From: a virus
Length of the DNA: 64,000 bases
Reading direction: 5' to 3' (one strand)
Virus record (IMG/VR): IMGVR_UViG_3300035158_000222
Location: 35,955 to 99,954 of that record
The notes beneath the pieces were generated by a model. It was not told where the DNA came from, searched no databases, and was given only the letters and a program-made list of their open reading frames with translations. Numbering within the stretch: position 1 is the stretch's first letter; each line of letters starts with the position of its first letter. Shown in pieces: positions 16,301 to 60,513 of this stretch. The translations under genes and the position numbers were made by a program.

Positions 16301-19300
16301 CATCTTGTCGACCATCTTTGTTACAGCCCTGGCCTCCACATCGTTCATACCAAAGCCTTCACCGACTAGGATTCGGCCCAGGTTGTCGGGGTGGAAATCA
16401 GGATCTACAATGACAGTCATGTTTTTAATATATCCCCTTACTTCGTTGGCTTGTCTTATCAGTTCTTCTTTCTGTGCGCCTACCATTCTTGTAGAACGTC
16501 TCTCTAGGTCTTTCCGGAAGGAGTCAAGAGTTTCCTTTAGGGTCCCGCTCATATCGAAGACCACCGGGAAATCCTTCTCCCGCCCAGTCTTTCTGAACAG
16601 TCCTTTAATAGCCGCGTGTACTTCCGTCATGCTTCTCGCATTGCCTACCTGCACTATATCAGCCTTCATAATTTTTATCTGGCCTAGATCTTTGGCAGAC
16701 GGTAGCTTGTCGTAGAATTGTTTTTTAATATCTGCTGCAGTAATGCGCGGCACTTCAGTAGTTGGATGAGTAACGGTCGGGACACCGATTTCCTTCAGGC
16801 CCTCTCTTGTTAAGAGTTTGTCGCCCATGTCTGCGATAGCATTGTGTAGTGCGCCCATCGCGGCTCCCATCTCAGGAGTGATATGTCCCTTGTCCGCCCA
16901 GTATACTCCATCTATCGGAATAGGAATATGATTATGTCTGGCTACAGCCATTGGAATTACAGACTTCTTGATAGCCTTTAGTCTGACCAGAGCCTCTTGA
17001 TTTGTTCTATAGTTGAATAGTATATCGTTATAGTCTATGTCAGGATCGCCTGTCCTTAGAGTTTTCTCCTGTCTCTTCATAGAATCCTGTACTCGCTTTA
17101 TCTCCCTATCAAGTTCGTCGTAGACATGTCTGGCTATAGTAGTATTTATGTTCCCATCCTTATCCACAATCTTTCCGTCCGGAGTATCACCGGTCAGAAG
17201 GAATCTCTCTACAGACATATCGTGTCTCATTCTATTTTCGACAGCAGCAAGATCAGTAGAAACTTCGTCTACCTTCTTGTCCAGTTTCTTGATCTTGGCA
17301 TCTCGTTCTTTCTTGAGTATGTCTATACCATCGCGTATCTGCTTTCTCTTAACTGTAAACTCTATAGCAGATTCGGCAACGATCTTTCTCATGCCAGCTC
17401 TTGCCTTCGGATCTTTTTCTTTATCGATCATCTTCTTAGCTTTCTCTCTTTGTCTATTGTATAGAGCCTGTCCATCTTCGATAACCTTATACTCACCGTT
17501 GATTCGCTTCTCGTAATCTCGCTCTATCTTTCTCGTCTGATTCGACAGGTCTTCAAGCTGGTCATTCAAACCTTTGATCTGTTTTCTATAGTCTGCCTTG
17601 TCAGACTTATCGTTGACCCACCTAGCCAGATCGTCTGGACCTATCTTATTCGCAACGTCAAATGCCACTCCAAGATTCTTCACGAGCTCTTCTGCAGAGA
17701 AATCTCTGATAGCCTTAGGAAGTTTCTTGGGCTTGAATGCTTCGCGCGCGGACTTGCTCAGGAGGTGTTTACCTATAACGTTACCACCAACCTGGTTAAG
17801 CTTGGACACTTCGGCAGCAGCTTTCGCATCCTCGGACGGACGCCTTGTGACTTTCCATTCCCAGTCATCAAACTTCTCTCTTGATATAGCTAGCTGTCTC
17901 TTTCTATATTCGTCACCCTTCTTGACTATCTTCTTCTTCTTAATCCGTTCCATGGCACTAGGATTCTCGCCCACATCATCAATCATCTTCTGGAATCTAG
18001 GAATAGGACCGTCTGTCATGTCGTCTAGATCAACGCGGATAAGAGGGGTTCTGGACCATCGAGGAGTTTCGAATGATACCTTAGCGCCCTTAATCTTCTT
18101 GAGCTTGGTATAGAATACTCCAGGATTAGCAATGTCTGGTTTTGTCTCCATTGTCTCCTTGCCGGTTCTTAAATCTACAGTCTTCTTACGCGGACCAACA
18201 TAATCTCCTCTACCATTGACCCAGTTAGAATGCTCCCTCTGCAATAATTTAGAGAATGCTTTTCCCTCTGGAAGCGAAGACTTTATTTCTCCGGACAATA
18301 TCCCGCTAAATATAGTTGCAGTTGAATCAACTACGTCTGCTAGCATCCCAAACTTTCTTAGTTCATCTATGCCACCATGTGCATCTTGCCAGGCAGCATA
18401 AGCCTTGTATAGAGCACGCTCTGCCGGAGGAACTTGCTTTTCTAGGAACTGCTTACCGAACTCGCCTATATTTATCTTGTGTCCTCTCATCATATCCCAT
18501 ATTTCTCTACCAAAATGTTTATAGTTCAGCTCAGCAGATTCTTCTACAGTATAGTAAAGCTTGCTTGCGAGACTATTTCCCTCAATAAGATCTGATGCCT
18601 TTCCGGTAGGAAGATATACAGACCGGTATCCCTCGGCCTTCTTGTTGTACAGCGCATGGCGTATTGTAATATCAAACCAGCTATCATAGAGATCGGCATA
18701 CCGCTTGTACACATCATAGTCCGCGATCTTCCTGCCCTTGACCGCCTTGTTAGATAGGATATCCATGAATGTAGTTCTGTATCTCTTCTCTTGACCCTGA
18801 TAGTAATCTATAATCTTCTTCGCAGAGTCCAGGTTTTTATATAGACCTCTTTTAAATTCGAGTCTACCTATCTTTACCTTCAGCGTACGACCAGCTTTGA
18901 AGTTAGCATTTAGATCAACTATGTTCTTGTAATACTTTCTATCGAGGTCATACAGTAGCTTACCGGTAGTAGTATCGGTACCAAGGCGCTTTGACTGCTC
19001 CTCTACGAATGCTAATACATAGTCTGCCATTGGATCGTGCGGTCCGAACTGTTTTTTTCTTAGCTTAGAGAGCTCGCCAAGTCTTGGCATAGTTTTTAGT
19101 TTACCTGCATCAAGCTTTGAATTCAGCTCTGCTATACCAAGGATAGTAGCATTAAGATCTCCTCTTGCCTCCGGTTCATACTTATACACGCTGTCTATCC
19201 GGCTGAATATACCCTTGTCCTTCGCGCCTGCTATTAAATCAGAAGTAAGTTTGTGTTTCTCTAGCCACTTGATAATATTCTTGCCTGCCTCATTTCTACG

Positions 19301-22300
19301 ATACAGACTGGTATTTTGTTCGATAAATATTTGTCCCTGCTTTGCCGCTAACTCCTTCGCAGGAATTTTTTCCGCTTCACTTTCGAGCCTGGCAAACTCT
19401 GCCTTATAGTCTTCTGCGAATTTAGCTATGTCTTTTCTCTGCTGCGTATTGCCATCGAAGTACATTCTAATAAGTTTATTCTCTATCTTGTTCGAGGTGA
19501 CATCGAAGGTTATGTCCCTATTAGCTTTTATATTCAGATCAATCTCATGAACAGCTTTCTCACTCGCCTTAGCAACATCATTGTAATTATCCATGGCACT
19601 CATCAGTTCCAGATCATTCTTATATTTAGCCAGCATTGATACTCTATTTTTTGCTTCTCTCTTCGCGACCTCTTCTATACCGGTAATACCGCCAGCTATC
19701 TCGTAGTCTCCATTAACAAAAGACTTCTTGATTTCCGGCAGAATGTCAGACTGGAACTCATGGATAAACACATCGTCCCCGATCTTAAACTCGGCATACC
19801 AACCAATACCATTGTATCGCTTCTTTGCCTCGCGGATACCAAACCTGTGGGCATTGGTTATAACTGCATCATCGACAAACAGCCTGCGCTTGTACTCTAT
19901 CGGAACCTTCTTCTTTTGTATATCTGTCATAGGCCCGATAGGAATAAGATTTTTAATTCCATACATTTCATGCCCAGTAACATCTACTACTCCAAGATCA
20001 TATCTTTGTCTCAGCCAATTTCTGTATGCATCGGCAAGCTCTGATGCTGGCATGGACTTTTCCTTGGTTGTCTCCAATAGATCCTTCCTGAATAATTCCA
20101 TGGCCTCAAGCTCGGCCTTCTTAATGCCCTCAAACTTAAATGGAGATGTAAGGGCTATGGCAGTGTCCGGCTTCTTCTCACCTAGCCAGTCTACAAATTT
20201 ATATTTAAGCTCGACAGGGTTCACTCTCTTAGATATGGCTTTCATGTCTGCGTCCTTTTGATTGAGCAGTTTTCTTTTTACTTTGAATCCGGAGAATGAT
20301 CCGTCAGTAAGGGCCCTGTCAAGATTGTCAACCGTTCTGGTTCTTGGATTATACGGACCCTGTGGCAGCACATACATTCTATCTACATACATATCTGCTC
20401 TCTGTTCAGCAGTAAGGTTGGTACCCAGCTCACGCTCTATAGCATCATCTACGGCAGAGTACTTTGCTGCATCGCCTATATCTACCTTACGTTTCTCGAG
20501 TGCAATAAGATTACCGATATCCTCCAGTGTAAGATCCGGCCTTAGTTCTCCTGGTCTGATCACTTCTCTCTTTCCAAACATAACATTAAAGTAATCGGCT
20601 ACTCTATCCAGGAGCTCTCTGACTTTACTAATGAGTCTTTGTCCCGTAGTAAGGGAGATTTTATCGGCAGCATACCTACCGATTGCCTCGGCAATACCCT
20701 CCTTATAGAAGTCTTCACTCCCGACTTTGATCTCAGGATACTTCTTCTCAATGTATTTAAGTATCTCGCCCTCGGTATCTAGTTCCTTCTTGAGGGCTTT
20801 ATAGAGATCAACATTCTCGCGAGAAATTACTTCTATGAATGGGTGAGCTATCTCATGGAATGGCGTTGAGGCCTTTGCGTAGGCACGGTTAATGTAGACC
20901 TGGCCATTTACGAATTGACCAGCCCATTTCATTTCCCTCCGATTAATTACTTTTACCTTCACGCCGAATCTGCTTGCGACTTGATAAGACGCACTGTCTA
21001 TCGCATACCTAGACATCTTCTTACCATAGGCCTGCTTCTCCAGCTTAGTCTTAGGCGGAGGGAGCAATAGAACCTCAGGCGGGGCCGGGTCTACGTTTAT
21101 TGTCTTGGGCCTTCTTGCTTCCGGATCTCTTACGAATCTAACTATATCAATAGCACCAAGTTCTTTCTTGGCGGCATAGAACGCAGCATTCCATTCCCGC
21201 AGCTTATCAAGATATTTCTCATAGGAAAGGATTTCTCTCGGGCTCTTGATATCTCTCAGCAGCGCTCCCACCTCTTCAGGCGTCAGCTTCTCGAACGCTT
21301 CCTCTCTGTCTACTTTATTTCTGTAGTCACGGGTCACGCGCTTACCACCGCTTCTCTCGCGTCTTAGTCTGGTTGCCTCGCGGGCTATACCCTCCTCAGA
21401 GAGTCCTACTAACATTCTTTGTTCTATATCCGATAGTTCAGTAAATTCCAACAGGAGCTCCATGGCAGTCTTAGTCTTCACGATGGATCCTGTCTCATCA
21501 CGTATACCTACAATCGGAGTAGCCAGAGCCTTCTCAAAGTTCCTTAGATAGTACTCAGGATTCTCTGCAGCCTTAACCGGATCAACAGACTGTGAGATCA
21601 GGTGGATAGAGTCATTGGCTCGGAACCCAGAACCGGCAGGAAGTCTGTCCTCCAGGATCGCATATACGATTGGATCATACGTTCCCTTGGCACGGAGCCT
21701 TTGCATGATCTCGGCAGATGTAAGAGTTTCTTCTATCTTAGCTTGAGGTGCAAGAACTTCGAAGTGTGTATCTTCGACAAAGCTCGGATGCTCTCTCATG
21801 TAATTGATAATGGCACGCTCTTCCGCGCTGTCACCAAACCACGCGAACTTCTTTCCATACCATGGGTTCGGCTTTCCCTTAGCATCAGTGGGATGCAGAA
21901 TAATCTCCAGCTCTCTCGCCAGCTCAGGAGTTACAAAGTAGTCCTCTGAGACATGCTTCTGCTTAGAGATTCTTCTATCTGGAGTTACTCTGTCGACGAA
22001 CTTAAGTTCGGGAACTGCCATCTTCTTTGCGTAGTCTTTGCCAACATCCTGGAGTTTTTTCCACTCTACTCTTTTGGCTTCGTATGCTTTCTGCCACTTA
22101 TCTATCGTGGCCTTGCTTCTCTTTTTCTTCTTGGCTATGTTTAGTTTCTCCTGAGTCACAAGCATATCTATCTTTGCCTGTGCCGCTCTTTGCTCCATTT
22201 CATTCAGCTTATCTATAACCGCTCTGTCTACAAGTCTGGGCTCAAGAACCTTCCAGACACGAGACCGCTGGTTATTCTCGAATACATCCTGCATGATCTT

Positions 22301-25300
22301 CGGGATAGATCTGGTTGTGGCACCGGGCTCCTTATCCATCTTCATTAGAATATCAAGGCCACCCTTTTGGATCTCCTTCGTGAACTTGTTGAACTTCTCC
22401 GTGAAGGCTTCCTTCGGGACCTTACGCCTCAGGATATAGGAAACTTGCTTGTTGAGTTTTCGCTCCGCGAACCAGAATTCATAATCATTCCATAGCTCAG
22501 ACATCTTGCGCACTTGTTCGTCAGTGTACTTCTCAAAGCTCCAGCCCTTGTTGCCCCCCTCCTTCTCGGGCACCATACCAGGCCATTCCTTCAGCTTATC
22601 CTTTAGGGTAGTGAATTGATTAGCATCTTTAGTCTTATTTAATTCGAATTTAGTATACAGAGCAAACTCCTTCTTGGTAGTTTCGTATAGGGCAGCGTCA
22701 GTTCTGGCCTTCAGGATATCGTCCCTTCTGGTAACAGCCCACATCGTACCAAGAGTATTGAAGTTTCTAAGTAGTTCGTTAATATTCTGATCAGTTAAAT
22801 ATCTACCTCTCATTATCATCTCTACGATATTGTACGGAGCCTTCGGGAAGAACGCTGGCTTGTCACCGCCAAGTTTCATCAGGAAGTATACCAGCTCATC
22901 AGCCGGGGTAAGTTTGAACGGGGCATCCGGTCTGTCTATCCAGATCTTCTTCTCCCTGTCCCACATCTTGGTAACCTGATACGATCTGTCTAGAACATTC
23001 CTTAGCTTCGCGTATAGGTTAGGATTAGTATAGTATAGATTTTCTAATCCGATAGCAGAGGAAAATACCAAGTCGACTTCGGGATCATACGGGGTGTACC
23101 TTCCTTCACCGATCTCATGAACACCGGTACGCTTCCACATTTCACGCACACCGGTCTTCGGATCTTTGATGCCGCCCTCGTAAGTTCTCTGTACAACATC
23201 CTGGATAGGATAAAGTTCGGACATTTGCTTTGTCCATACTACTTGCTTTTTATTTTTAACGACATCGAACTTGCCCAGTATGCTGGTAAGCTCTCCTCTC
23301 TGAGCGCTGTTCAGGAACTGATGGTACCACCCAACCTTCGGGTTTAGGTATGCTGTACGCAAAAGATTGTATACAACGACCGGCCCCATCTCACCTCTAT
23401 TCTTGGCAGCCTCAACATACTCGATAATAGTTTTGGTCTTACCCTTTGATGTGGCAGTAAGTTTCCTTGTCTTAGGATCGAATTGGAACTTCTGATTCTT
23501 CTCAAAGAACAGTGTCTTCCAGTTATCAGATATCTTACCTATCGTAAACCGTCTTGAGTTCTCTATCTGCTGCTGTGCAATAGCTGTGAATGCACCAAGA
23601 AGATCTCCGGACAATCCCATTCTTGTCTTTCTTGTACGTCTGTACATTACCCTGTACACGCCAGTATCAGGGTCCCTGAGGATCAGATTCTGATTATTTT
23701 TCCATAACGCCTGATCGTGTGGGTGAAGGGCACTGAAGTCGTCAGGAGTAATCCCGTAGAAGACAAAGTCATCAGTTACCTTTATCGGAACAGCCTGGTC
23801 TGCTTCAACCATTCTGCGGAAGAAGTCATCACGCTTCCTGTATATATCAGCAGCCTCAACAGCTCTGTCTATTGATCCATGATATTTCTTTGGATAGTCT
23901 TCATAGAGTTTCTTCTTAACCCTGTCCAGCTCTTCGGTTGTTTTAATCATACGTTCTCTTTTAATAACCTTACCGTCCTTGTCTACCTTCTCTATTACCC
24001 TGAACAGATCAAGTAATGCCTGTCGTCCAACCTTGTCCAAGTTTGCAACCTGCTCTCCATAGTAGACAAGTTCGAACCGCCCAAGGTTTCTGGATTCAAA
24101 TATCCTCTGCCTGAATTCTTTCAGGAAGTTGTCCGGAGACACTATTACTCCTACTCCTCGAGAGATGTTGTTCGGATCAAAGGCTTCACCATAAAGTCCG
24201 CGATTAAGTTCTACAACTTCATTGAACAAATCAGTATCAGCCTTGATCTCATCACTGACAAGATCCTTAAGTTTGGTCTTATCCTTCTTCACGAGAACTC
24301 TTTTGTAATAGGTCTCCGGGAACATTTGCATCAATCGTCTGATGTCCTCTGTCGCCAGGCCCATAGTTTCGTTGAATTTCCAGAAGACATCTTCAGCATC
24401 TGCGCTGGCTCTGATAGGATCTGCAACGTACTCCCTGAGATAGTTCTTTACCCTGGTGGCCGGGAGGTCGAATTCCCCGGATACCTTAGCCACTGCTTCT
24501 ATGAACTTAACTTCATTCTGCGCACGCAAAACTCCCAGCTCCTGATCGGTTAACTGGGTAATCTTTTTTCCTTTGTACGGAAGTAGTTTAGCTAGTGAGA
24601 TACCTCGCCACTTCATCGAAGCAACGGTTAAGGTATTGAGATTTATCTTATTGGGCTCAAAAGTTGTTAAGAGTTCACGGAATGTTGTCGCATCCTGCGG
24701 GGAGTAGAACCTCTCGGTCGGAACTTTCCCCTTCCGGATAACGTTATCCAGGCTCCAGATAAATTCGAATGTCCCGAGCGCGGCGCGCTTAAATCCTGTG
24801 CGCTCTGCATCGTCAAGAAGCTTGTATGCGATCTTCTGTCCCAGTGGTCTCATCAATCTTCTTGTCCCCCTACCAACCGGATACCACAATAGATCAATGG
24901 GGTCAGTCACAATCATCAAGGCTTCATCGAGAAGCTCAGTAAAAACAGGATAGTTGTTCTGCAACTTAACCCTGGTCTGGTCATTAAGTATGTTTAGGAA
25001 TGATATATCGTCCTCTCTTGTGATAGGAATCTTGATCTCTGTACCGGCCGGTATCTTTGTAATATCTTTGATTCCCATTGCATACAGGTCATTACGCATT
25101 TGAATATCAGCAATGATCTTCATTCTGTCAGGACCGGCAGGCACTATATCCATGAGGCTGCCTTCTTTTTCAAACCTATATTTAAACTCGTTGCGCGCGT
25201 CACGCATCCAGTTGTATGTCTTCTCCCAGTTCTTCATGATCTGCGGAACATCTTTAGCTCCTTTGTATAGCAGGATTTCTGTTCCTATCGGAATCTTATC

Positions 25301-28153
25301 AAAGTCTTTGATGTGAGGATTCAGTTTCTTAACGGCTTCTATCCGCTCCTCGGGTGTAGGCTCTACGAATCCGACAACGGCATCCAGGTCCCATGGATCC
25401 ATGAATGATTCTAGTGGACCCTCGAACTCTGTCACGATCTTTCTGTCGTCAAGCCTGCTCCAGAGTTGCTCCTGATCTACAGTATGGTCGGGATAATTCA
25501 ACCATCGTCTTACCATCCGGATAGACATTAGTGCCTTGTCTATGGGCCCTGCATCGTCAGGCTCCATAATAACCTGGCCAAGTTTAAATTCATTCGGCAT
25601 ACCAAGAGACTTCATCTTCTTGTTAAGGAAGTTATCGGTCTCCATACCGATCCACTGCAGGAAGTTTTCGAATTCATTTACTGTAGCTAGCGTGGCTGGC
25701 CAAGCCTCTTTGAACAGGAGATTGTTATACTTCATTAGACCTTCGAATACGACCTGTGACGGTTTCCATTTGACTTCCTTGCCGGTAACCTTACCCCACA
25801 ACTTTCTTGGTCCCCAGGTAATGCCATCCGCAGTATATAGCGGAGCCTTAATGTATGGAGATATAATAACCGCATCGAATAGAGCCCAGGCTCTGCTACC
25901 CAACAGATCATATGTCAGACGTGCTCTTGATGGAGCCTCCCTATATGCCTCAATGATGCTGGTCGGCTTTACTAACCTTGCCTTCTCGAATGCCGCATGT
26001 TGCTTAGATTCATTATTTAATTCTTCGATCTCCTGGAATTGTCTTGCCCTGGCTTCCATCTCATTGGCTTCATCTATCTTCTTAAACGAATCAAGCAGCT
26101 TATTATAGAACCGGTCCAGTTCCTCGTTATATGATTTAAGTTCATTGTCATATTGCTCCTGGAGATCGGTAAGCTTTTGATTATCTGTCTGGACTCTTGA
26201 GTAGTTGTTTCTGATCCAGGATTCATTCTCTCTATATGAGGCTGCTATCTTCTGTGCATTGCTAAGCTCTCCGGCATTCATGATCTTACCTGCGATAACC
26301 GCATCCTGGAATGTAGGATTATTAACAAGGTCTTCAAGCCTTGGTCCGATATTATTCAGGATGGTTTCCTTCACATTGATTCTCTCTGCTATCTTATTTC
26401 CTTTTGTTACTTCGAGATTATATTTATCTAGAGTGCTGTGAAACTTTTGGGCCAGATCGTTGATCTTGATTATCCTATCCCTGTTCAGCATCCCATATGT
26501 CGTATGTGTCATCTGTTCGAACTCTGTCATCGCATCGAATCTGTAGCTATCCTCGATATACTTGTCCATCTCAGGATCAATCAATGAGTCAAGCTCTGCC
26601 TTCTGATCCAGCATCTCGTCCATCATCTCGTCAGCAGATTTAGACACGTCATCAAATTCGCTGGTAAGTATCTTAACTTCTTCCGATGTGGCAGATATAT
26701 CCGATAGGGATTCTGCGATATCGCCCATCTCTGATATCGTCTCTTCGATCACGCGGTGCTTCTCTTCGGGCACAGTGGTAAGGTCCAGCTTATACATCTT
26801 ATCCGTAGCATCCCTGGATAGCTGCAGGAGATCGGCTATATCATTGAACTTCCGCGTAGTTCTGTCCTGCACCTGGTATAGCGGGCTATCTTCCGGAAGG
26901 GCAAACATCTCTGCTTTCCTTTCCATTTCTTTTAATGCTTCCTCTCCCATCTTTTCCATGTCATATAGGGGCCTTCCTTTCTCATCTATCGGAATTGCAA
27001 TCCCAAGCTTCTTGGCTTCTTCAAGTGCTGGGCCTCTAAGCCAATCGAACTCAGCCTGTCGTGTTGACTCGGCTTTCTGCTGTTCTATCTCAAATGCCTT
27101 AGGGGCTGTGGTCTTTCTGATTCTCTGTACCTCTCCCTTCTGGGATACAAGAGTAAAATCATATTGGTTGTATATATCGAGAACCTCTTCGTAGCCCTTG
27201 CCCTGTTTGATTGCTTCATCGATTCTATCTTTCAGTTCTTCAATCTTCTTATCGGTTACTGGCTTGTTTAGGAAGTTCTTAACCGCATCGTCTATTCTAA
27301 CTTCCTCCTCGGCATCAAGCATAGTCTTAACTGCATTACCGAATCCCTTGCGGATCTTGTCCTGGACCGTTGCCTCTGGGGCATTGGTTCTGATACCGAT
27401 GCTCGGAAAATAAGTGTTTGTTACAGGAATAAAGTAGTCGGTCATTCCTTCTCTGATTTTTTGTTTAAGACCTTCGAACTTCTTTGCATCTTCCGGGGCC
27501 TTGGGTTGGAAGAATTCATCGAATCTCTCTCCGAGTTTATCCATCTGTTCGGTCACGTCTACTCCGAATATACTAAAAAAAGACCTGGCCTCGTCCGGTT
27601 CAGGGACGGGTTCAGGTCTCTTTTCGGGAGCCCTTGGTCTAAGCTCTGGGGGAACTTCAGCTTCTGGAATGATATCTACTCTGGGTTCGGGAACTTCCGG
27701 CTCTACAACTTCCACCTCTACAGCCTCTGGAGGAGGTACAATCTCCACCTTGGGCTCTGGAATTTCCGGCTCAACTACTTCTACTTTCGCCTCTGGGAAC
27801 TCGGGTTCAACAACCTCTACCTTTTGCTTCTTGGCTAGGTAGCGTTCGTATGCGCCTTCTTCGCGCCATTCTTTCCCCAGGTCTTTATCGATTTGTTCGT
27901 CTGCTACGTTTGGGAAACGTGCCTTCACTTCGTTCCATACCGGACCCCAGTCAACTCCTGTTTGCAACTTTCGTATACCCTCTTTGATAGCATCATCGTA
28001 TTGAGTGGCCGGGACAACAACCTCCTGCCCTACTTTAATCACATTGGGATCTGTTATGTCTTTATTCAGTTGAAGGACAGTGTTAAGATCCGACCCATAT
28101 TGTTTTGCAATATTGGTCAAAGTCTCGCCACCTTTAACGACATGGCGTATCAT
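10322..28153 (-). CDS. giant (5943 aa) LysM-containing polyvalent probable internal virion / ejection protein
   Basis: Uninterrupted 17.8-kb ORF. N-terminal LysM (HVVKGGETL..IAKQYG...LN.DI.DPNVIKVGQ), VEVVEPE repeats, further LysM-like half motifs, TPFHEIAHPF zincin motif, IHEFQSD motif, helical C-terminus. Confidence 0.85.
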   Translation of the reverse strand: MIRHVVKGGETLTNIAKQYGSDLNTVLQLNKDITDPNVIKVGQEVVVPATQYDDAIKEGIRKLQTGVDWGPVWNEVKARFPNVADEQIDKDLGKEWREEGAYERYLAKKQKVEVVEPEFPEAKVEVVEPEIPEPKVEIVPPPEAVEVEVVEPEVPEPRVDIIPEAEVPPELRPRAPEKRPEPVPEPDEARSFFSIFGVDVTEQMDKLGERFDEFFQPKAPEDAKKFEGLKQKIREGMTDYFIPVTNTYFPSIGIRTNAPEATVQDKIRKGFGNAVKTMLDAEEEVRIDDAVKNFLNKPVTDKKIEELKDRIDEAIKQGKGYEEVLDIYNQYDFTLVSQKGEVQRIRKTTAPKAFEIEQQKAESTRQAEFDWLRGPALEEAKKLGIAIPIDEKGRPLYDMEKMGEEALKEMERKAEMFALPEDSPLYQVQDRTTRKFNDIADLLQLSRDATDKMYKLDLTTVPEEKHRVIEETISEMGDIAESLSDISATSEEVKILTSEFDDVSKSADEMMDEMLDQKAELDSLIDPEMDKYIEDSYRFDAMTEFEQMTHTTYGMLNRDRIIKINDLAQKFHSTLDKYNLEVTKGNKIAERINVKETILNNIGPRLEDLVNNPTFQDAVIAGKIMNAGELSNAQKIAASYRENESWIRNNYSRVQTDNQKLTDLQEQYDNELKSYNEELDRFYNKLLDSFKKIDEANEMEARARQFQEIEELNNESKQHAAFEKARLVKPTSIIEAYREAPSRARLTYDLLGSRAWALFDAVIISPYIKAPLYTADGITWGPRKLWGKVTGKEVKWKPSQVVFEGLMKYNNLLFKEAWPATLATVNEFENFLQWIGMETDNFLNKKMKSLGMPNEFKLGQVIMEPDDAGPIDKALMSIRMVRRWLNYPDHTVDQEQLWSRLDDRKIVTEFEGPLESFMDPWDLDAVVGFVEPTPEERIEAVKKLNPHIKDFDKIPIGTEILLYKGAKDVPQIMKNWEKTYNWMRDARNEFKYRFEKEGSLMDIVPAGPDRMKIIADIQMRNDLYAMGIKDITKIPAGTEIKIPITREDDISFLNILNDQTRVKLQNNYPVFTELLDEALMIVTDPIDLLWYPVGRGTRRLMRPLGQKIAYKLLDDAERTGFKRAALGTFEFIWSLDNVIRKGKVPTERFYSPQDATTFRELLTTFEPNKINLNTLTVASMKWRGISLAKLLPYKGKKITQLTDQELGVLRAQNEVKFIEAVAKVSGEFDLPATRVKNYLREYVADPIRASADAEDVFWKFNETMGLATEDIRRLMQMFPETYYKRVLVKKDKTKLKDLVSDEIKADTDLFNEVVELNRGLYGEAFDPNNISRGVGVIVSPDNFLKEFRQRIFESRNLGRFELVYYGEQVANLDKVGRQALLDLFRVIEKVDKDGKVIKRERMIKTTEELDRVKKKLYEDYPKKYHGSIDRAVEAADIYRKRDDFFRRMVEADQAVPIKVTDDFVFYGITPDDFSALHPHDQALWKNNQNLILRDPDTGVYRVMYRRTRKTRMGLSGDLLGAFTAIAQQQIENSRRFTIGKISDNWKTLFFEKNQKFQFDPKTRKLTATSKGKTKTIIEYVEAAKNRGEMGPVVVYNLLRTAYLNPKVGWYHQFLNSAQRGELTSILGKFDVVKNKKQVVWTKQMSELYPIQDVVQRTYEGGIKDPKTGVREMWKRTGVHEIGEGRYTPYDPEVDLVFSSAIGLENLYYTNPNLYAKLRNVLDRSYQVTKMWDREKKIWIDRPDAPFKLTPADELVYFLMKLGGDKPAFFPKAPYNIVEMIMRGRYLTDQNINELLRNFNTLGTMWAVTRRDDILKARTDAALYETTKKEFALYTKFELNKTKDANQFTTLKDKLKEWPGMVPEKEGGNKGWSFEKYTDEQVRKMSELWNDYEFWFAERKLNKQVSYILRRKVPKEAFTEKFNKFTKEIQKGGLDILMKMDKEPGATTRSIPKIMQDVFENNQRSRVWKVLEPRLVDRAVIDKLNEMEQRAAQAKIDMLVTQEKLNIAKKKKRSKATIDKWQKAYEAKRVEWKKLQDVGKDYAKKMAVPELKFVDRVTPDRRISKQKHVSEDYFVTPELARELEIILHPTDAKGKPNPWYGKKFAWFGDSAEERAIINYMREHPSFVEDTHFEVLAPQAKIEETLTSAEIMQRLRAKGTYDPIVYAILEDRLPAGSGFRANDSIHLISQSVDPVKAAENPEYYLRNFEKALATPIVGIRDETGSIVKTKTAMELLLEFTELSDIEQRMLVGLSEEGIAREATRLRRERSGGKRVTRDYRNKVDREEAFEKLTPEEVGALLRDIKSPREILSYEKYLDKLREWNAAFYAAKKELGAIDIVRFVRDPEARRPKTINVDPAPPEVLLLPPPKTKLEKQAYGKKMSRYAIDSASYQVASRFGVKVKVINRREMKWAGQFVNGQVYINRAYAKASTPFHEIAHPFIEVISRENVDLYKALKKELDTEGEILKYIEKKYPEIKVGSEDFYKEGIAEAIGRYAADKISLTTGQRLISKVRELLDRVADYFNVMFGKREVIRPGELRPDLTLEDIGNLIALEKRKVDIGDAAKYSAVDDAIERELGTNLTAEQRADMYVDRMYVLPQGPYNPRTRTVDNLDRALTDGSFSGFKVKRKLLNQKDADMKAISKRVNPVELKYKFVDWLGEKKPDTAIALTSPFKFEGIKKAELEAMELFRKDLLETTKEKSMPASELADAYRNWLRQRYDLGVVDVTGHEMYGIKNLIPIGPMTDIQKKKVPIEYKRRLFVDDAVITNAHRFGIREAKKRYNGIGWYAEFKIGDDVFIHEFQSDILPEIKKSFVNGDYEIAGGITGIEEVAKREAKNRVSMLAKYKNDLELMSAMDNYNDVAKASEKAVHEIDLNIKANRDITFDVTSNKIENKLIRMYFDGNTQQRKDIAKFAEDYKAEFARLESEAEKIPAKELAAKQGQIFIEQNTSLYRRNEAGKNIIKWLEKHKLTSDLIAGAKDKGIFSRIDSVYKYEPEARGDLNATILGIAELNSKLDAGKLKTMPRLGELSKLRKKQFGPHDPMADYVLAFVEEQSKRLGTDTTTGKLLYDLDRKYYKNIVDLNANFKAGRTLKVKIGRLEFKRGLYKNLDSAKKIIDYYQGQEKRYRTTFMDILSNKAVKGRKIADYDVYKRYADLYDSWFDITIRHALYNKKAEGYRSVYLPTGKASDLIEGNSLASKLYYTVEESAELNYKHFGREIWDMMRGHKINIGEFGKQFLEKQVPPAERALYKAYAAWQDAHGGIDELRKFGMLADVVDSTATIFSGILSGEIKSSLPEGKAFSKLLQREHSNWVNGRGDYVGPRKKTVDLRTGKETMETKPDIANPGVFYTKLKKIKGAKVSFETPRWSRTPLIRVDLDDMTDGPIPRFQKMIDDVGENPSAMERIKKKKIVKKGDEYRKRQLAISREKFDDWEWKVTRRPSEDAKAAAEVSKLNQVGGNVIGKHLLSKSAREAFKPKKLPKAIRDFSAEELVKNLGVAFDVANKIGPDDLARWVNDKSDKADYRKQIKGLNDQLEDLSNQTRKIERDYEKRINGEYKVIEDGQALYNRQREKAKKMIDKEKDPKARAGMRKIVAESAIEFTVKRKQIRDGIDILKKERDAKIKKLDKKVDEVSTDLAAVENRMRHDMSVERFLLTGDTPDGKIVDKDGNINTTIARHVYDELDREIKRVQDSMKRQEKTLRTGDPDIDYNDILFNYRTNQEALVRLKAIKKSVIPMAVARHNHIPIPIDGVYWADKGHITPEMGAAMGALHNAIADMGDKLLTREGLKEIGVPTVTHPTTEVPRITAADIKKQFYDKLPSAKDLGQIKIMKADIVQVGNARSMTEVHAAIKGLFRKTGREKDFPVVFDMSGTLKETLDSFRKDLERRSTRMVGAQKEELIRQANEVRGYIKNMTVIVDPDFHPDNLGRILVGEGFGMNDVEARAVTKMVDKMKERGAIWIFGESSELASPWHLKNSMYGKGMLPEDRAMHNLMREDFDQIVRAAADPKPGFPGHFPVDPDSFASEFFGVDKKGNITIDSLLESRPQIAERSARDMALAGLEADMIRHNVGVGEAADYKKFVRGSNILVVGGRSTFLNPDQRKAIMYGYNNGTRFVFNGVKMMPGEKAVFEFVSSLPNSKVAFMSFNEKNIMAIRNGNPVKISMRDPKLKKTVTKAKHVDLMFPTTRQFRTKAMRDLYEKFSLPGTVNILKHEELIKAKLRQELQESVSKWMGDPNKFPPWFITDKMNMYHNSYFQKPIKDIMVDWASIKGRQELKEKFDKGIDSAMKEYRDEIRKGFMEQNNGKPLLDWQERLIDEHHRQAIEISKNIKRYVFKFDMPSRLIESFKRKMANHMFYLHERQRQEFDDTFNGIHEQLVGEVPRNLRYYERANKLFLKTLPDVNQVQKTIRRTAFSTFIWSVLMLRPGWLLWNYLGDSMRVIMGTRNVRLFIDISRLQAEATALRMKKHLINVREFTKLMIGKEADIGVYNLEAYLKAKKDSRSIPGMLRSKRVRKAYMESIKPRNKNLVNEAIELGDWESITSAGLVQYLADPKKAEGHVRVLRDYMDSEPLNNFVVARKTARKLKLAGRVFFADYVSMAAQLENMRRVIMAHDLMYRKAFNKAKTEIKVKKFLYDYRDLTLAGRFFRTFFPFYAFTAKSIGLYLGAMIKYGPGVYQASNALLDAYDKLSADMPDQFKERVPFGDKIWVLPHFGVLEYLRVIVDPFESLKKFADNPLKMSFALGWGPFFAGGIELVGKRGFHETGPLMRDFGKYGWFAEEQRRYKERDASRFTDELTYSDEPSALVTFMMAYLPPLRVMESIFETDYAVQLRGTAWYNSKKVRAIFKWFGLNYLELEDVAFVWDSLNKLPPHERDLFKRSLEAENPDLWKYFQQYNMLLQMDRINKAKGKSKEQKIYDLHKFIVIQVYFEKEWEKDGSGDVWLAQNPDIKHIVEKHFDDLEKQYGITSKQILGKRKFEMAQVEASIRKMLTTTRDVDQNKIARMNLAGISHPFKKPFKEAELRAELFDKFGNLKVKNIDEVVKILEKYDAIVTFLDPQIYKEEAEVDYQRWQALGLEAQEQARDEDARFYGRMSLVFATLPDNLDELPDEEANKYWDKYNKRLEDLILSIPKWKQRYLDEMPPWQREYYEKRVQYGNWWGEMIQRIEREEDTDFFNWFNAKPGWFRKWYYLSNPDARLYFPLVQETNIRRQKIVDTQDKTGFDPADWKGLYDYIWKNQNALKAWDRRRPGTYNYYDKLKQLYDGLTKAREVDDSTIYFDLFFQKKGNKGWDDFREFYFSKEHNTWKRITYPYVRTWLELQKRDEENELLTGKRTNLATVWFWSEKNKKARETYHENKKIDGVHSVVDYQRVWKDAADKFEKDPGIIYQFVYDQEEWFRNRYFDIHPDRKVYYPMALKMQEFEEFQDRLGYFFKAENKTQRDAWERDKPGIVGYYKFWYDHNNIKEKDGRAAALEFYFSDANKDYRLRHDSANPGAIEAYTLWKQYEAIDRESWEGRKERREFLRENPKLREWWDRDKDISEEEVAFNLQREIYYTIIDKVEADGKGRQYYLDYFEARAKAQKYFDDNPEFEQWFKSDREITRTPKQQAMDTLMEQYNALDYDSERREFLLEHEDLDRYLLLQVPPGIRRIRLLQRAYFKIEHEDSDKQYELRQTFLDRYPELEEYWEVSKMPTSYWTDRSKFDTTRNKFSKAEKFFEAVEQKQWRSAEKFKDLLPAVPDTRTEEGRWLLNKLYGRAMSTWATTFGTFMSTYYFKMLPSWLRNEYFKRHPEKKFLSYLSLGRQMEEGLRIEDNKRPDQAWAVRQQNKFRKNIPFDIKKQVEDILVKRGTWQDRSVWTDAQWDQWWEARIARVNALRQKDLEELPLLRSELLRVMRRYPLSTLPKPLKGWGDVNPFIVTNVIAFTNEEFSNTLEDRKVLTRVPERAKI

Positions 28154-31587: not shown

Positions 31588-33690
31588 ATGAGTTTCATGC
31601 GATTTATAATTAATTTCCAGCGTAGAATTGGTGGTCCTTCCAAGCGTATACGAAAGCACAGAATGCGTAGGATTGTCAAGAGAACCTGGGCTAAGCACAG
31701 GATCAAGGAACCACTCGTGACTGCAGAGCGCATAGCGTTTCTAGTCATCGCAATTATAATAATCCTTGGTGCTGTAACGTTCTGTTCTCATCTAGCTGGA
31801 GCCATGCAGCAATGATAGTCAAGTACTACAAGTTTATGTTCTTTAACAATGAATTTAGACTGGTCATGCATGATCTTGAGCATTATGCCAAGCGATACGG
31901 TACGTATGGTTATCATGGTATGATACTGAAGCATGATGAAAGATTTGTTGTAGCTATGGAGCGAAACTACAAAGATAGAAACTTCGGCACTAAATTAAAC
32001 TGGATGTTTTTCCAATATGTTCCTGTTCTTAAGCTACCCAGGCTATGTGTGTCGCCAGTCTCAGCTCTTGTTATTTATAACGAGACGCTTAATAAGCTTA
32101 AGTCTGCGATGAAGTATCGTCCAGACATGTATCAACCATATGACTATAGTCGTAAGGAGCAACAAAAAACCCGCCGGTCGGTCAGAGTACATGACCGTCA
32201 CGGGTAAGGTCCTAAGTAAAGAAGCAGGACCAGAAGAGAATACGTTCTGGCTAAAACAAAATACTAACAAGTCATCGGACTGGGCCCAGCTAGCCCGTAA
32301 AGGTCATGAAGTCTTCCACCTTATGAATACCAATAGGTTTGGCAGGGCTTCAGGGTTTGCCGGTAAGATCAGGATCGATGGCAAAGTAATGTCTTATGAC
32401 GAAGCGAGAGATAAGTACGGGTGCTAGGATGAACGAACACGATCTGTTTAAATATAACGGTAATTCATCCAAGATAGTCATGAGAAGGAAGATCATGAAT
32501 CGTACGTTTGTTGTTCATGAGATAGATCGTGGCAAAATGTACGGTACCATTGAATTCATGAAGGATGATATGTTCAAGAAAGCTAAGATGGTGCGTCATA
32601 AGATATTAGAATCAAAGGTCGAAGCACTTGTCCTTTGTGCCAAGTGGTACAAATGGACTAGGATTCAAGTAATATTTGGACTCTCGATGATGGCAGCAGC
32701 TGTGTCTTTGCCTATCATTGGAGCAATATTCAGCTATGATTGAGCCAAAGAACATGTCCGATGATGAGCTGATAGTTCATCACCGTGACGTAGTAGATGA
32801 AATTAAACGAAGAGCAGCTAGAGACTTGCCCGAGCACAATCGCAAGCGTAAACTATGCAAAGGCTGTGTGAATAATGAGATATTCACGATCTGCCCGAAG
32901 CTAGAGGTCGCTACGCTTGAGCGAGGTAAGCTCAACTGCTTTAAAGCAATAATATATGGATGTTGATAAGAAATGGACTACGCTCGAGCATCGGCATATG
33001 ATGAAGTATACGATTCATAAAAGACGGCTCGGAGCAATGTATTTTCTTATTCTGGCATATCCTGCACACCATCTCAATGGAGCAAGGCGCAACATTACTG
33101 AGTATGATGTCAGAAGATTTAGACTAGAACATGACGACAAGATGGTCGATCGTATGACATGGGGTCCGTATAGGACAAAGATCGAAGCCATGGTCAAGTT
33201 TAGCAGGATATACAGAGTAGCTCTGCTGCAGTATAGAGTTGCCGTAGGTGGCATGATCCTTGGATTTGCTATCTGCGTCATAACACTAATATGTTCGATG
33301 TTAAAGGGCTAAGCGACGACGAGCTCGTAGCTTTCTACCGACTGGCGATCAAGGAGATAAGGCGCCGGGTCGCTGAGAGCGTGAGAATACGTGAGTTTAT
33401 TTCTTCTCATCGGGCTAAGCGAAATGAACGAAGTAAAGAGCGAGGCAATTAACGTAGATTATTGGATCGTTATGGAGAAGATAGATATAGATGGCTGGGA
33501 TGAGGTAAATAGATATCCCACTAAGTGGTTGTATCAAATCAGGATATGTAAAATGACAAAGTATTTCATGAATGATGACAGAATGCAGAGGTTTGAATTC
33601 AGAGCGGGTGATACTATCTATGACGTACGCACAAATAATCTACTTGAGGCTCATGTAATCTATACTAAGCTCAAAGAAAAATATGCCTGA
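31588..33690 (+). other. block of tightly coupled small hypothetical CDSs (31588-31815, 31812-32207, 32140-32427, 32429-32743, 32736-32966, 32956-33312, 33291-33452, 33424-33690)
   Basis: Overlapping stop/start codons. Several share an (E/S)A(L/M/H)V motif, two share SDDEL...EI.RR, and some have C-terminal transmembrane helices. Confidence 0.65.
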
Positions 33691-33895
33691 CAAACATAAA
33701 GTCAAAACGCTTCTTGACAATCTCCCCGTTCTATCGGACGCTCCGTCTGATAATAAGGGTAATCTGGATGTCAAGGCGTATAATAAAACCAAGGAGGTTA
33801 AATGGGTTATTCGTAAGCTCAAAGAAGAGAACGTAGACGGAGCCTGGCTCCGTGGCAACGGCTTTTTGATAGCTGCGATGATCCTGGATATATAA
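33683..33895 (+). CDS. hypothetical protein directly upstream of the RAMP-like gene
   Basis: 70-aa ORF ending 2 bp before 33898. Confidence 0.6.
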   Translation: MPDKHKVKTLLDNLPVLSDAPSDNKGNLDVKAYNKTKEVKWVIRKLKEENVDGAWLRGNGFLIAAMILDI

Positions 33896-33897
33896 TT

Positions 33898-34485
33898 ATG
33901 AAAAAGATAAATGTAACAGTAAAAGGACTATGTCCTATTCTCCATGCTAGGCATCCTACTCCCAAAGAGGAAGCCGAGATACTAAAGCGCAAGTCAAATC
34001 CTAAGTTTAAGGTGAAGGACATGACCGACGAAGAAAAATTTGAGATGCATTCATATAAGGTAGCGAAGAAGTTTGTCCTACCTAGTGAGATGTTCGAGGC
34101 AACCATGGTAAAGGCTGCTGTTCAGGTTAAGATGGAAGGAAAGAAGACGTATAAGGATGCATTCAAGGGAGGGATAATAGTTAATCCGGAAATGATCCCA
34201 TTCAAAACACAGAAGGTAGTAATGAAAGACACTCCGCAGAAGGGTGCATGGTGGATGTTTGGTAAATGGGGCCGCAATCCGAGCACTCGTGGTGCTATGT
34301 GGATTGTTAGGCCAAGATTGGATGAATGGGAATTAGACTTTACTATAGATCTGCTCATGGATGAGCTGATCCCCGTCGATGTAGTAAAAGGCGTATTAAC
34401 ATTCGCAGGAATGTATATTGGAGTTGGTGCTTGGCGTCCGAAGTTCGGTCGCTTTGAGGTTACCAAGTTCAAGGTACAAAAGTAA
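33898..34485 (+). CDS. stand-alone RAMP/Cas7-like RNA-binding protein
   Basis: N-terminal strand INVTVKGLCPILH, then FVLPSEMFEATM (the iPgsslKG-like position), RPRLDEWELDFTI, and a C-terminal glycine-rich loop AGMYIGVGAWRPKFGRFEV. Motif recognition only. Confidence 0.7.
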   Translation: MKKINVTVKGLCPILHARHPTPKEEAEILKRKSNPKFKVKDMTDEEKFEMHSYKVAKKFVLPSEMFEATMVKAAVQVKMEGKKTYKDAFKGGIIVNPEMIPFKTQKVVMKDTPQKGAWWMFGKWGRNPSTRGAMWIVRPRLDEWELDFTIDLLMDELIPVDVVKGVLTFAGMYIGVGAWRPKFGRFEVTKFKVQK

Positions 34486-34487
34486 TT

Positions 34488-34787
34488 ATGTTTAGGAAAC
34501 CCAAAAAGGAACCTAAGACTAGGTTCGCTCCCGACAATCTTAAGACTCTGAAAGGCAGTGACATGATTCAAATGTCACGTGAGCTTCTCGACGCAGCCGT
34601 GCGTTCGACAGAGATACTTAAGCTTAAACCTGGAGAGATGACTCCTGAAAAATTGAAGGAGGCCAAAGTTGTTCTTGGCTATGTTAATGCTACGAATAAT
34701 GTCATGAAGACTAGGATAAATATCCTAAAGATGACTGGTATTCAAGCAAAATGCAAAGCTATCAAGAGCAAATCAAAATCACTTTAG
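34488..34787 (+). CDS. helical basic hypothetical protein between the RAMP-like gene and the array
   Basis: 99 aa, starts 2 bp after the RAMP-like gene and ends 6 bp before the array. Confidence 0.65.
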   Translation: MFRKPKKEPKTRFAPDNLKTLKGSDMIQMSRELLDAAVRSTEILKLKPGEMTPEKLKEAKVVLGYVNATNNVMKTRINILKMTGIQAKCKAIKSKSKSL

Positions 34788-34793
34788 GCACAT

Positions 34794-35202
34794 ACAGTAT
34801 AGCTTCTGAAGTTCAGTCAGGTTCAGTGCCGTAAACTGATGTTCAGTGGACTCAAGTAGCGTGATGTATAGTAATGCTTCTATAGTCCAGTTGTGTCTAG
34901 TATCGTATTGTGAACTGGTGTGAACTTTTGTCTTGCAAAGTGAAGTAATGTAATGCTTCTGCAGTTTAGTGGCGTGTTGTGGTCTAGTGTTGTGTGCAGT
35001 TCAGCAAAGTGATGTAGTTTAATGTACAGTAATGCTTCTTCAGTACAGCAAGGTGTTGTAAACTTGTGTTTTGTGGACTAGCGTAATGTGAAGTAAAGTA
35101 ATGCTTCTGAAGTCTTGTCTAGTTATGTCAACTAATCTGTTGTTCAGTGATGTGTTGTGAGGTGAACTAATGTAAAGTATAGATCGTAGATTTAACTACG
35201 AT
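34794..35202 (+). ncRNA. pentamer-periodic (NN-WGT) array of five units with AATGCTTCT linkers; candidate guide-RNA array
   Basis: Units 34808-34872, 34882-34951, 34961-35030, 35040-35099 and 35109-35178 (13, 14, 14, 12 and 14 pentamers). Linkers at 34873, 34952, 35031 and 35100, plus variant ATAGCTTCT at 34799. Terminal hairpin ATCGTAG/CTACGAT at 35183-35202. No long ORF. Confidence 0.8.
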
Positions 35203-59204: not shown

Positions 59205-59561
59205 GTAGTTTCCTTTTGATACGATAGCGCTCGGCCCTATCTGCCTGATGCTTCCTTTTCTTCCGTGTTCCCCAGCCGTCGCCTTTTTTGTATGACTTAG
59301 TTGAAAATGCCATATGAATTGGGGAAAAATTTGCTCACCCAGTGACACTTCCTTAATAGGCGGTATGGGTGGGTGTGTTTAGAGGCAACGAACTTAAGTT
59401 CGTGTGTGCCTTTTGCTTAACATGAGCCATAGACAGCGTCATCCGGTAGGATTAAGAATTAGAGGATGGGCTGACGAACCATGGGCTGGCTAGGCTCTAC
59501 ATGGTATTTCGGCGGTGCTCCTAATGGAACCCTATGGCAGTGTGTTGCTGCGCTTGCCTTA

Positions 59562-59657
59562 GACTGAAAGTGGGATTCGAACCCACGTTCCCGCCGGTTG
59601 CTGGTTCAATAACCGAGCGTTCCTTGCGGAGTCCTTACCGACTAGACGATTTCAGTC
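59562..59657 (-). ncRNA. atypical tRNA-like RNA with an expanded anticodon arm
   Basis: Acceptor (G)ACTGAAA/TTTCAGT(C), D arm, T arm GTGGG-TTCGAAT-CCCAC; CCGC/GCGG encloses 31 nt. Confidence 0.65.
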
Positions 59658-59704
59658 TGCTCACCCTAACTGAATAGAGCGGGCATCGTTTTCCCAAACG
59701 AGTG

Positions 59705-59776
59705 AGCATGTACAGGGAATCGAACCCTGCCCCTCTGGTTGGAAGCCAGACGTGCCGCCGTCAACACCTCACATGC
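59705..59776 (-). tRNA. tRNA-Gly(TCC)
   Basis: TCTGG-CT TCC AA-CCAGA, full cloverleaf. Confidence 0.9.
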
Positions 59777-59843
59777 GTTTATGACAGAGGTACTGTGGAA
59801 TACCCGGGTTCGCCACAAGCACTCGAGCCTCTCTCCTGTCCGG

Positions 59844-59915
59844 AGCCTCTAGTAAGAGTCGAACTCACGTCAACGGATTACAAATCCGCCGCTCTGCCAA
59901 TTGAGCTATAGAGGC
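59844..59915 (-). tRNA. tRNA-Thr(TGT)
   Basis: GCGGA-TT TGT AA-TCCGT. Confidence 0.9.
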
Positions 59916-60215: not shown

Positions 60216-60249
60216 AATGGCTGATACTCAATTATTATGTTAATAAGTG

Positions 60250-60507: not shown

Positions 60508-60513
60508 TGGTAG

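What the first reader, a model, noticed from the sequence alone, without database searches (positions are those of the whole stretch)
33683..35202. Candidate non-CRISPR RNA-guided system: stand-alone RAMP/Cas7-like protein plus a pentamer-coded multi-unit array
Seen: a tightly coupled gene run (70 aa, 195 aa, 99 aa) leads directly into about 400 nt of non-coding DNA with strict 5-nt periodicity. An invariant linker, AATGCTTCT, divides it into five 60-70 nt units, and a hairpin closes it. The 195-aa protein has RAMP-like motif order and a C-terminal glycine-rich loop (GMYIGVGAWRPKFGRFEV). No cas1, cas2, cas5, cas6 or canonical CRISPR repeat is present in the window. Established: Cas7/RAMP subunits polymerise on guide RNA with a fixed nucleotide footprint per subunit. 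Inference: the array is processed at the linkers into about 5 guide RNAs, one protein subunit binds each 5-mer through its conserved triplet, and the variable dinucleotides are displayed for target reading. From memory, and not verified here, phage RAMP systems with GGY-NN repeat RNAs (VIPR) have been reported. This locus would be a divergent variant with an (A/T)GT triplet and a different linker.
Basis: partly seen in the sequence, partly recalled or inferred. Interest (0 to 1): 0.96.

Follow-up and report, generated by a model that had tools for sequence, protein, structure and literature searches.

The report
Phage VIPR system with WGT-NN guides
This uncultured ~100 kb phage carries a VIPR system, a CRISPR-like RNA-guided DNA-silencing system first described in 2026 preprints, in a variant that is already in print, so it is a clean new member rather than a new kind of system.

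Summary
Window 34808-35178 (+) contains 67 pentamers of the form NN-[A/T]-G-T. Copies of GCTTCT divide them into five units, directly downstream of three tightly packed genes.

The 195-aa protein is a Vipr. A profile of its relatives hits PDB 36pp, "SUSP1 Vipr protein", at E 5e-25. Its AlphaFold model (pLDDT 91) matches Cas7/Csm3. About 73 of 80 related viral loci carry a period-5 tract next to the gene.

The locus is therefore a VIPR system as described in bioRxiv 10.64898/2026.04.26.720920 and .720927. The WGT/NN triplet variant is named in 10.64898/2026.10.21.760802. This scan has flagged VIPR loci many times before.

- The G-loop Asp that contacts the first G of GGY in SUSP1 is Ala here. 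The correlation is suggestive but not significant after correcting for phylogeny.
- Every unit is 5k+4 nt long and there is no long 3' tail.
- A 99-aa gene is conserved in the accessory (vap) position.
[quoted passage not shown] More than 120 genomes carry the match, about 95% of the named ones Patescibacteria.

No targets were found for guides 2-5. Expression and RNA processing were not tested.

The parts
33683..33895 (+). 70-aa ORF, 2 nt upstream of vipr; probably not part of the system
   Evidence: ORF list. No family hit. No homologue beside vipr in 80+ related loci.
33898..34485 (+). vipr: 195-aa stand-alone RAMP (Vipr family), G-loop GVGAWRPKFGRF
   Evidence: phrog_4652, E 3.7e-18. 24% identity over 96% of the length to SUSP1 Vipr. 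A profile of 44 relatives hits PDB 36pp 'SUSP1 Vipr protein' at E 5.3e-25. AF2 pLDDT 91.4. Foldseek top hits are type VII Cas7 and Csm3, E 1.5e-6, TM 0.56.
34488..34787 (+). 99-aa candidate accessory gene in the vap position; small basic helical protein of unknown function
   Evidence: Homologues (29-41% identity) lie downstream of vipr in L005-L009 and L017. No similarity to SUSP1 vap1. No Pfam or PHROG hit. AF2 pLDDT 66, three long helices plus a short N-terminal one.
34799..34807 (+). first linker copy (ATAGCTTCT), preceded by one or two pentamers
34808..34872 (+). vrRNA unit 1: 13 pentamers. Units 1-11 (34808-34862) spell the serine-integrase motif ESHSAKDSGQR under the 1-nt-skip rule
34873..34881 (+). 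linker AATGCTTCT
34882..34951 (+). vrRNA unit 2: 14 pentamers; no target found
34952..34960 (+). linker AATGCTTCT
34961..35030 (+). vrRNA unit 3: 14 pentamers; no target found
35031..35039 (+). linker AATGCTTCT
35040..35099 (+). vrRNA unit 4: 12 pentamers; only a chance-level hit
35100..35108 (+). linker AATGCTTCT
35109..35178 (+). vrRNA unit 5: 14 pentamers; only a chance-level hit
35183..35202 (+). hairpin closing the array (7-bp stem, 6-nt loop), followed by A-rich sequence

Best explanation
The locus is a VIPR (Viral Interference Programmable Repeat) system on an uncultured ~100 kb phage. It comprises vipr (33898-34485), a conserved 99-aa gene in the accessory position (34488-34787) and an array of five guide (vrRNA) units (34799-35178) on the same strand.

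The mechanism is inferred from the SUSP1 system, where it was shown biochemically and by cryo-EM. The array is transcribed with the operon and cut into RNAs of about 70-80 nt. One Vipr protomer binds each pentamer and sequesters the conserved triplet, here W-G-T in place of G-G-Y. The two variable bases are presented and pair with double-stranded DNA that reads NN-x-NN-x (one base skipped). The resulting filament blocks transcription.

The triplet change fits the protein. The residues that hold the second G in SUSP1 (R138, W178) and R179, which holds the pyrimidine, are kept. The two residues that read the first G (H17, D177) are Ala here.

Guide 1 most likely silences the large serine integrase of resident mobile elements, probably in Patescibacteria hosts. 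This parallels SUSP1 vrRNA4, which targets a satellite recombinase.

My odds: VIPR membership about 0.95; the SUSP1-like mechanism about 0.8; the integrase target of guide 1 about 0.75; a Patescibacteria host about 0.5.
For: - Homology: pairwise alignment to SUSP1 Vipr runs end to end, both proteins 195 aa, with the shared motif GVGxWRPxFGRF. The profile hit to PDB 36pp has E 5.3e-25.
- Fold: AF2 pLDDT 91.4. The Foldseek top hits shown are all Cas7-family RAMP subunits, mainly type VII Cas7 and type III Csm3.
- Context: about 73 of 80 IMG/VR loci encoding relatives have a period-5 tract beside the gene, on the gene's strand. The closest relatives (L005-L007, 54-55% identity) share the WGT triplet and the GCTTYT linker.
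- Locus order is the same as in SUSP1: vipr, small gene, array.
- Published mechanism and contact residues.
- Protein/RNA match: 51 of 54 loci with Asp at the D177 column have at least 50% G at triplet position 1, against 2 of 12 loci without Asp.
- The guide units are not more structured than shuffles, z from -1.3 to +1.7.
- No self-targets occur in the phage's own genome.
- Guide 1: all 9 IMG/VR hits to units 2-10 lie in frame in large serine recombinase genes, with the skipped base at the wobble position. Units 1-11 match 22/22 wherever Arg is encoded AGR. More than 120 genome hits were returned; 89 of the 94 named ones are CPR lineages.
- Equally long patterns from the other guides gave 0, 0, 1 and 1 independent hits in IMG/VR and 0 and 0 in metagenomes.
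- Published precedent for a recombinase target.
Against: - No expression, processing or binding data exist for this locus.
- No sigma-70-like promoter was found on the + strand.
- The long structured 3' tail that caps SUSP1-clade vrRNAs is absent.
- The 99-aa protein has no detectable relation to any described Vap, and its model is poor.
- Only one of five guides has a plausible target. Its last two units never match.
- The guides of relatives do not hit the same integrase loci.
- The Asp-to-Ala correlation rests on about 5 changes on the tree and only 3 independent pairs, so it is not significant after allowing for relatedness.
- Host assignment rests on MAG labels and on the distribution of the target. 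The Vipr hits found in 6 of 401 sampled CPR genomes are distant ones.
Confidence: 0.85

Rival explanations
1. The locus is a VIPR system, but the match of guide 1 to serine integrases is coincidental. The real targets are unsampled phages or satellites, or the guide acts on something else.
For: An 18-base pattern gives roughly 0.5-1 chance hit per IMG/VR scan. A single chance hit in a conserved motif is then multiplied across a large family. Units 12-13 never match. No other guide converges on these loci. Earlier target claims of this kind in the scan partly fell on later checks.
Against: The hit extends by 4 further specified bases (p about 1/256). It is wobble-aligned. It lies in the catalytic domain of the one target class shown experimentally for VIPR. 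It occurs in the same phylum that holds the named relatives of this Vipr.
Confidence: 0.2
2. The array is a decayed or inactive remnant. It may be untranscribed, or the protein may no longer bind it, since the D177A substitution abolishes silencing in SUSP1.
For: D177A abolished GFP silencing in SUSP1. Ten of 67 pentamers have C at position 4. No promoter was detected.
Against: The Ala and the WGT triplet are shared by all close relatives (L005-L007). Their guide dinucleotides differ while the linker and the 5k+4 unit rule are kept, which indicates selection. The ORFs are intact and tightly coupled. An independent preprint reports WGT/NN arrays beside Vipr-like folds.
Confidence: 0.05
3. The periodic tract works as DNA, for example as protein-binding iterons or phased bent DNA, and not as a guide RNA gene.
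For: Nothing specific was found beyond the lack of direct RNA evidence.
Against: Strand-specific association with a RAMP gene holds across dozens of loci. A 5-nt period matches the RNA footprint of Vipr rather than the DNA helical repeat. A tRNA gene sits inside the homologous array of L005, which implies transcription through it.
Confidence: 0.02

Closest known systems
Type II VIPR of Escherichia phage SUSP1 (Vipr ALH47069.1, PDB 36pp; bioRxiv 10.64898/2026.04.26.720920, .720927 and 10.64898/2026.10.15.759431)
   Same: Both have a 195-aa Vipr with the same G-loop and thumb Arg. The gene order is vipr, small gene, array, all on one strand. Both use pentamer repeats with two variable bases, are phage-borne and lack cas genes. 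One guide is aimed in frame at a serine recombinase catalytic domain.
   Different: Identity is only 24%. The triplet is WGT rather than GGY (D177 and H17 equivalents are Ala). A 9-nt linker replaces the ~40-nt pseudoknot tail. The accessory protein is unrelated to vap1. There is no upstream vrRNA. The host is probably not enterobacterial.
Non-canonical VIPR arrays (WGT/NN, TGH/NN and others) in bioRxiv 10.64898/2026.10.21.760802, and the YNNNG repeats and 'staggered' arrays noted in 10.64898/2026.04.26.720920
   Same: The repeat motif is the same, WGT/NN, which read from the T is YNNNG. A Vipr-like fold lies next to the array. Unit lengths of 5k+4 nt fit the legend describing vrRNAs that overlap by 1 nt.
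   Different: Those reports give motifs and folds only. I could not see their figures or tables, so I cannot say whether this clade is among them. Residue-level reasoning, targets and host are not given in their main text.
Class 1 CRISPR-Cas backbone subunits (Cas7 of type VII, Csm3 of type III-A)
   Same: Both have the RRM-based RAMP fold with a G-loop and a thumb, and polymerise on guide RNA with a fixed footprint.
   Different: There is no CRISPR repeat-spacer array and no Cas1. Cas2, Cas5, Cas6 and a large subunit were not searched for individually. The footprint is 5 nt with 3 bases flipped, against 6 nt with 1 flipped. Sequence identity is only 10-15%.

Membership tests
VIPR system | Protein homologous to Vipr | tested here: met
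   Profile against PDB 36pp 'SUSP1 Vipr protein', E 5.3e-25, positions 1-176 of 181. Pairwise 24% identity over 96% of the length.
VIPR system | RAMP fold: RRM core, glycine-rich loop, thumb | tested here: met
   AF2 pLDDT 91.4. Foldseek hits Cas7/Csm3 at E 1.5e-6, TM 0.5-0.56. The G-loop GxGxWRPxFGRF is invariant or nearly so in 44 relatives.
VIPR system | Adjacent same-strand tandem pentamers with a fixed triplet and variable NN | tested here: met
   67 pentamers, about 7 SD above background. The same arrangement occurs in about 73 of 80 related loci.
VIPR system | Canonical GGY triplet | tested here: not met
   The triplet is W-G-T, with G at its first position in only 6% of units. The papers accept related consensus motifs (YNNNG; WGT/NN) as VIPR, so this is a variant and not grounds for exclusion.
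VIPR system | Minimal locus without cas genes or a CRISPR array; phage-borne | tested here: met
   No Cas1 or Pfam RAMP hit in the record and no CRISPR-like repeat in the window. The record is an IMG/VR virus with a terminase and tRNAs.
VIPR system | Accessory vap gene | tested here: inconclusive
   The 99-aa gene is conserved in the vap position in 7 loci. It is unrelated to vap1 and no function can be read from it.
VIPR system | Targets follow the 1-nt-skip rule | tested here: inconclusive
   Guide 1 matches 22/22 specified bases in frame in serine integrase genes. Guides 2-5 have no convincing hit. Other skip lengths were compared only on small local sets.
VIPR system | vrRNAs are expressed and co-purify with Vipr; the complex represses DNA targets | not testable with these tools
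VIPR type II (SUSP1 / P. fulva clade) | Invariant structured 3' tail (pseudoknot) after each repeat tract, and vap1 | tested here: not met
   Only a 9-nt linker separates units. The units are not structured beyond shuffles. There is no vap1 similarity. I therefore do not assign it to type II; the type could not be settled because the preprint's tables are not held.
CRISPR-Cas | Repeat-spacer array plus an adaptation module (Cas1-Cas2) | tested here: not met
   (Cas2 was not searched)

The most novel reading that the evidence does not exclude
This is a compact, tail-less VIPR lineage of phages that infect Patescibacteria (CPR). A natural Asp-to-Ala change in the G-loop has retuned the scaffold triplet from GGY to WGT, producing a Vipr/vrRNA pair orthogonal to SUSP1. 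Guide 1 immobilises resident CPR mobile elements by silencing their serine integrase. That would make it one of the first functional handles on phage-versus-mobile-element conflict in CPR bacteria.
Probability: 0.3. Interest if true: 0.55.

Novelty: new member of a known kind. Interest (0 to 1): 0.3.

Why it matters
The locus does not open a new class. VIPR, its skip rule, its structures, non-GGY triplets (WGT/NN by name) and a recombinase target are all in 2026 preprints, and this scan has met VIPR loci in hundreds of genomes.

Its value is as a well-resolved example of the non-canonical branch:
- It pairs a specific G-loop substitution with a specific triplet change. That gives a direct, cheap experiment on how Vipr reads its scaffold, and on whether orthogonal Vipr/guide pairs can be built for multiplexed silencing.
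- It shows a very short linker in place of the pseudoknot tail.
- It offers a testable link between an uncultured large phage, serine integrases and Patescibacteria.

Tried and rejected
- **Near-identical DNA in cultured phages:** none found. The terminase is only 24% identical to any cultured phage, so the host cannot be read from relatives.
- **Self-targeting:** the best score is 18-19 of 26-28 under skips of 0-2, which is background.
- **Targeting of other vipr loci:** background.
- **Guides 2 and 3:** 0 hits in IMG/VR and 0 in metagenome contigs. Guide 2 gave 0 of 301 CPR genomes with up to 2 mismatches.
- **Guides 4 and 5:** one independent hit each, with extensions at chance level.
- **Convergence on the integrase loci:** guides 2-5 and 18 guides from L005-L007 do not hit within about 4 kb of the integrase sites.
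- **Rfam:** nothing real. One sub-threshold miRNA hit; no hammerhead.
- **Promoter scan:** no + strand site.
- **Secondary structure of units:** not above shuffles. A small GAAGUA/UGCUUC hairpin appears in only two units and is not conserved in relatives.
- **99-aa protein:** Pfam, PHROGs, AF2 (pLDDT 66) and the ESM Atlas gave no usable lead. I did not run a fold search on so weak a model.
- **Asp/G1 covariation:** Fisher p 8e-8 uncorrected, but only 3 independent pairs on the tree, so it is reported as suggestive only.
- **Close Vipr relatives in sampled CPR genomes:** only distant family members, in 6 of 401.
Full report
**Observation**

The + strand carries three ORFs spaced 2 nt apart: 33683-33895 (70 aa), 33898-34485 (195 aa) and 34488-34787 (99 aa). 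The next gene starts at 35246.

Between them lie 67 pentamers in one phase per unit. Position 4 is G in 56 of 67, position 5 is T in 64 of 67, position 3 is A or T in 59 of 67, and positions 1-2 are nearly uninformative. Identity at lag 5 is 0.46 against about 0.2 at neighbouring lags. The tract is the strongest period-5 signal in the window (about 7 SD) and the only one in the whole 99,954-bp record.

GCTTCT occurs five times (34802, 34876, 34955, 35034, 35103) and splits the tract into units of 13, 14, 14, 12 and 14 pentamers. A hairpin with a 7-bp stem at 35183-35202 closes it. A-rich sequence follows the hairpin, so it is not a textbook terminator.

**What the protein is**

Pfam finds nothing. 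PHROGs places the 195-aa protein in phrog_4652, of unknown function.

A translated search of cultured phages finds 119 records, nearly all Felix-O1-like enterobacterial phages and including phiSUSP1, at 24% identity over 96% of the length. The SUSP1 gene is also 195 aa and aligns end to end. The C-terminal motif GVGxWRPxFGRF is shared.

SUSP1 is the model of the VIPR systems described in bioRxiv 10.64898/2026.04.26.720920. A profile of 44 metagenomic relatives hits PDB entry 36pp, "SUSP1 Vipr protein", at E 5.3e-25.

The AlphaFold model built on that alignment is confident (pLDDT 91.4, pTM 0.85). Its best matches among solved structures are Cas7 of type VII and Csm3 of type III-A complexes (E 1.5e-6, TM about 0.55).

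The record has no Cas1 or Pfam RAMP hit, and the window has no CRISPR-like repeat.

**The array belongs to the protein**

Among 80 IMG/VR loci that encode relatives, about 73 have a period-5 tract within a few hundred bases of the gene. In the loci read directly the fixed triplet lies on the gene's strand.

Most of these tracts are GGY-NN. The closest relatives (L005-L007, 54-55% identity) have the same W-G-T triplet and the same linker GCTT(C/T)T, while their variable dinucleotides differ.

Across the four loci every unit is 5k+4 nt long (54 to 79 nt). This is what one expects if whole-pentamer RNAs overlap by one base, as the legend of fig. S18 of the first preprint describes for "staggered" arrays. 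I could not see that figure.

The units fold no better than shuffled sequence (z -1.3 to +1.7). That fits a protein-coated single strand.

**How it most likely works**

The mechanism is shown for SUSP1, not here. There, one Vipr protomer binds each pentamer and flips out the GGY triplet. The NN bases pair with DNA that reads NN-x-NN-x, and the filament represses transcription.

The cryo-EM paper names the contacts:
- G1 is read by H17 and D177.
- G2 is held by R138 and W178.
- The pyrimidine is held by R179 among others.

In this protein R138, W179 and R180 are kept, while both G1-reading positions are Ala. The same is true, or nearly so, in L005-L007.

This mirrors the repeat. The G2 and Y3 positions are conserved as G and T, and the G1 position has relaxed to A/T.

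Across the loci, 51 of 54 with Asp at that column have at least 50% G at triplet position 1, against 2 of 12 without Asp (Fisher p 8e-8). On a tree this reduces to about 5 changes and 3 independent pairs, too few for significance. I treat it as a structurally sensible lead, not a result.

**Accessory genes**

The 99-aa gene has homologues in the same position in six other loci. It shows no similarity to SUSP1 vap1, has no family, and gives only a low-confidence helical model. It is a candidate Vap of unknown function.

The 70-aa gene is not conserved beside vipr, so I leave it out of the system.

**Targets**

I wrote each guide as NN-N-NN-N and searched with it.

- There is no self-target in the phage's own genome and no hit in other vipr loci.
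- Units 2-10 of guide 1 gave 9 IMG/VR hits. All lie in frame, with the skipped base at the wobble position, in large serine recombinase genes (Resolvase + Recombinase + zinc-ribbon domains; phrog_95 integrase). They fall on the motif ESHSAKDSGQR(P) of the catalytic domain.
- Units 1-11 match all 22 specified bases wherever Arg is encoded AGR. Units 12-13 never match, and these belong to the semi-constant 3' end shared by the five units.
Of the 94 with a lineage name, 89 are Patescibacteria/CPR, 47 of them Saccharibacteria.

Controls of equal length from the other guides gave 0, 0, 1 and 1 independent hits in IMG/VR and 0 and 0 in metagenomes. The extensions of those hits were at chance level.

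I estimate chance at roughly 0.02 or less before counting frame and gene class. The parallel with SUSP1 vrRNA4, which silences a satellite's serine recombinase at its catalytic core, raises my odds to about 0.75.

Three things argue for caution. Only one guide has a target. No other guide, from this array or from relatives, converges on these loci. Similar target claims elsewhere in this scan partly fell on later checks.

**Host**

The phage is far from any cultured phage. The three named database members of this Vipr clade sit in Patescibacteria MAGs, as do nearly all guide-1 targets. A sample of 401 CPR genomes held only distant Vipr relatives, in 6 genomes. A CPR host is plausible at about 0.5 but is not shown.

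**Comparison and novelty**

The locus meets the defining features of VIPR except the canonical GGY triplet. It lacks the pseudoknot tail and the vap1 of type II, so I do not assign a type.

Non-GGY repeats are already reported: YNNNG in the first preprint and "WGT/NN" by name in 10.64898/2026.10.21.760802. This scan has flagged VIPR loci in more than 300 genomes.

This is therefore a new member of a known kind. The modest additions are the residue-level rationale for the triplet, the 5k+4 tail-less layout seen in four loci, the conserved 99-aa partner, and the integrase/CPR lead.

**Limits**

The preprints' supplementary tables are not held.

Noticed in passing
L005:4033-4106: A tRNA-Gln(ttg) gene sits inside the vrRNA array of a close relative, between two guide units. 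RNase P/Z processing would cut the array transcript there, much like the ribozyme-interspersed arrays described for other VIPR types.
   Followed up: partly
L006:4554-4660 and 4982-5426: In this relative one guide unit lies between vipr and the 99-aa homologue, and the rest follow that gene. The accessory gene is therefore embedded in the array.
   Followed up: no
window 10322-28153 (-): A single open reading frame of 5,943 aa, with a further 2,307-aa ORF upstream of the window in the same record. These are unusually large proteins for a ~100 kb phage.
   Followed up: no
window 59561-62555 (-): A cluster of 15 tRNA genes, including two tRNA-Phe.
   Followed up: no
window 34850-34881, 34930-34960, 35080-35108: The last two or three pentamers before each linker are semi-constant (GA-W-GT, AA-W-GT, AATGC). 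In two units they can pair with the linker (GAAGUA with UGCUUC). This may be a minimal stand-in for the 3' tail.
   Followed up: partly
L088:5130-7168 and L092:432-4469: The serine integrase genes matched by guide 1 sit next to DNA methyltransferase, helicase and HNH genes on IMG/VR contigs. This is a mobile-element or defence-like setting.
   Followed up: partly
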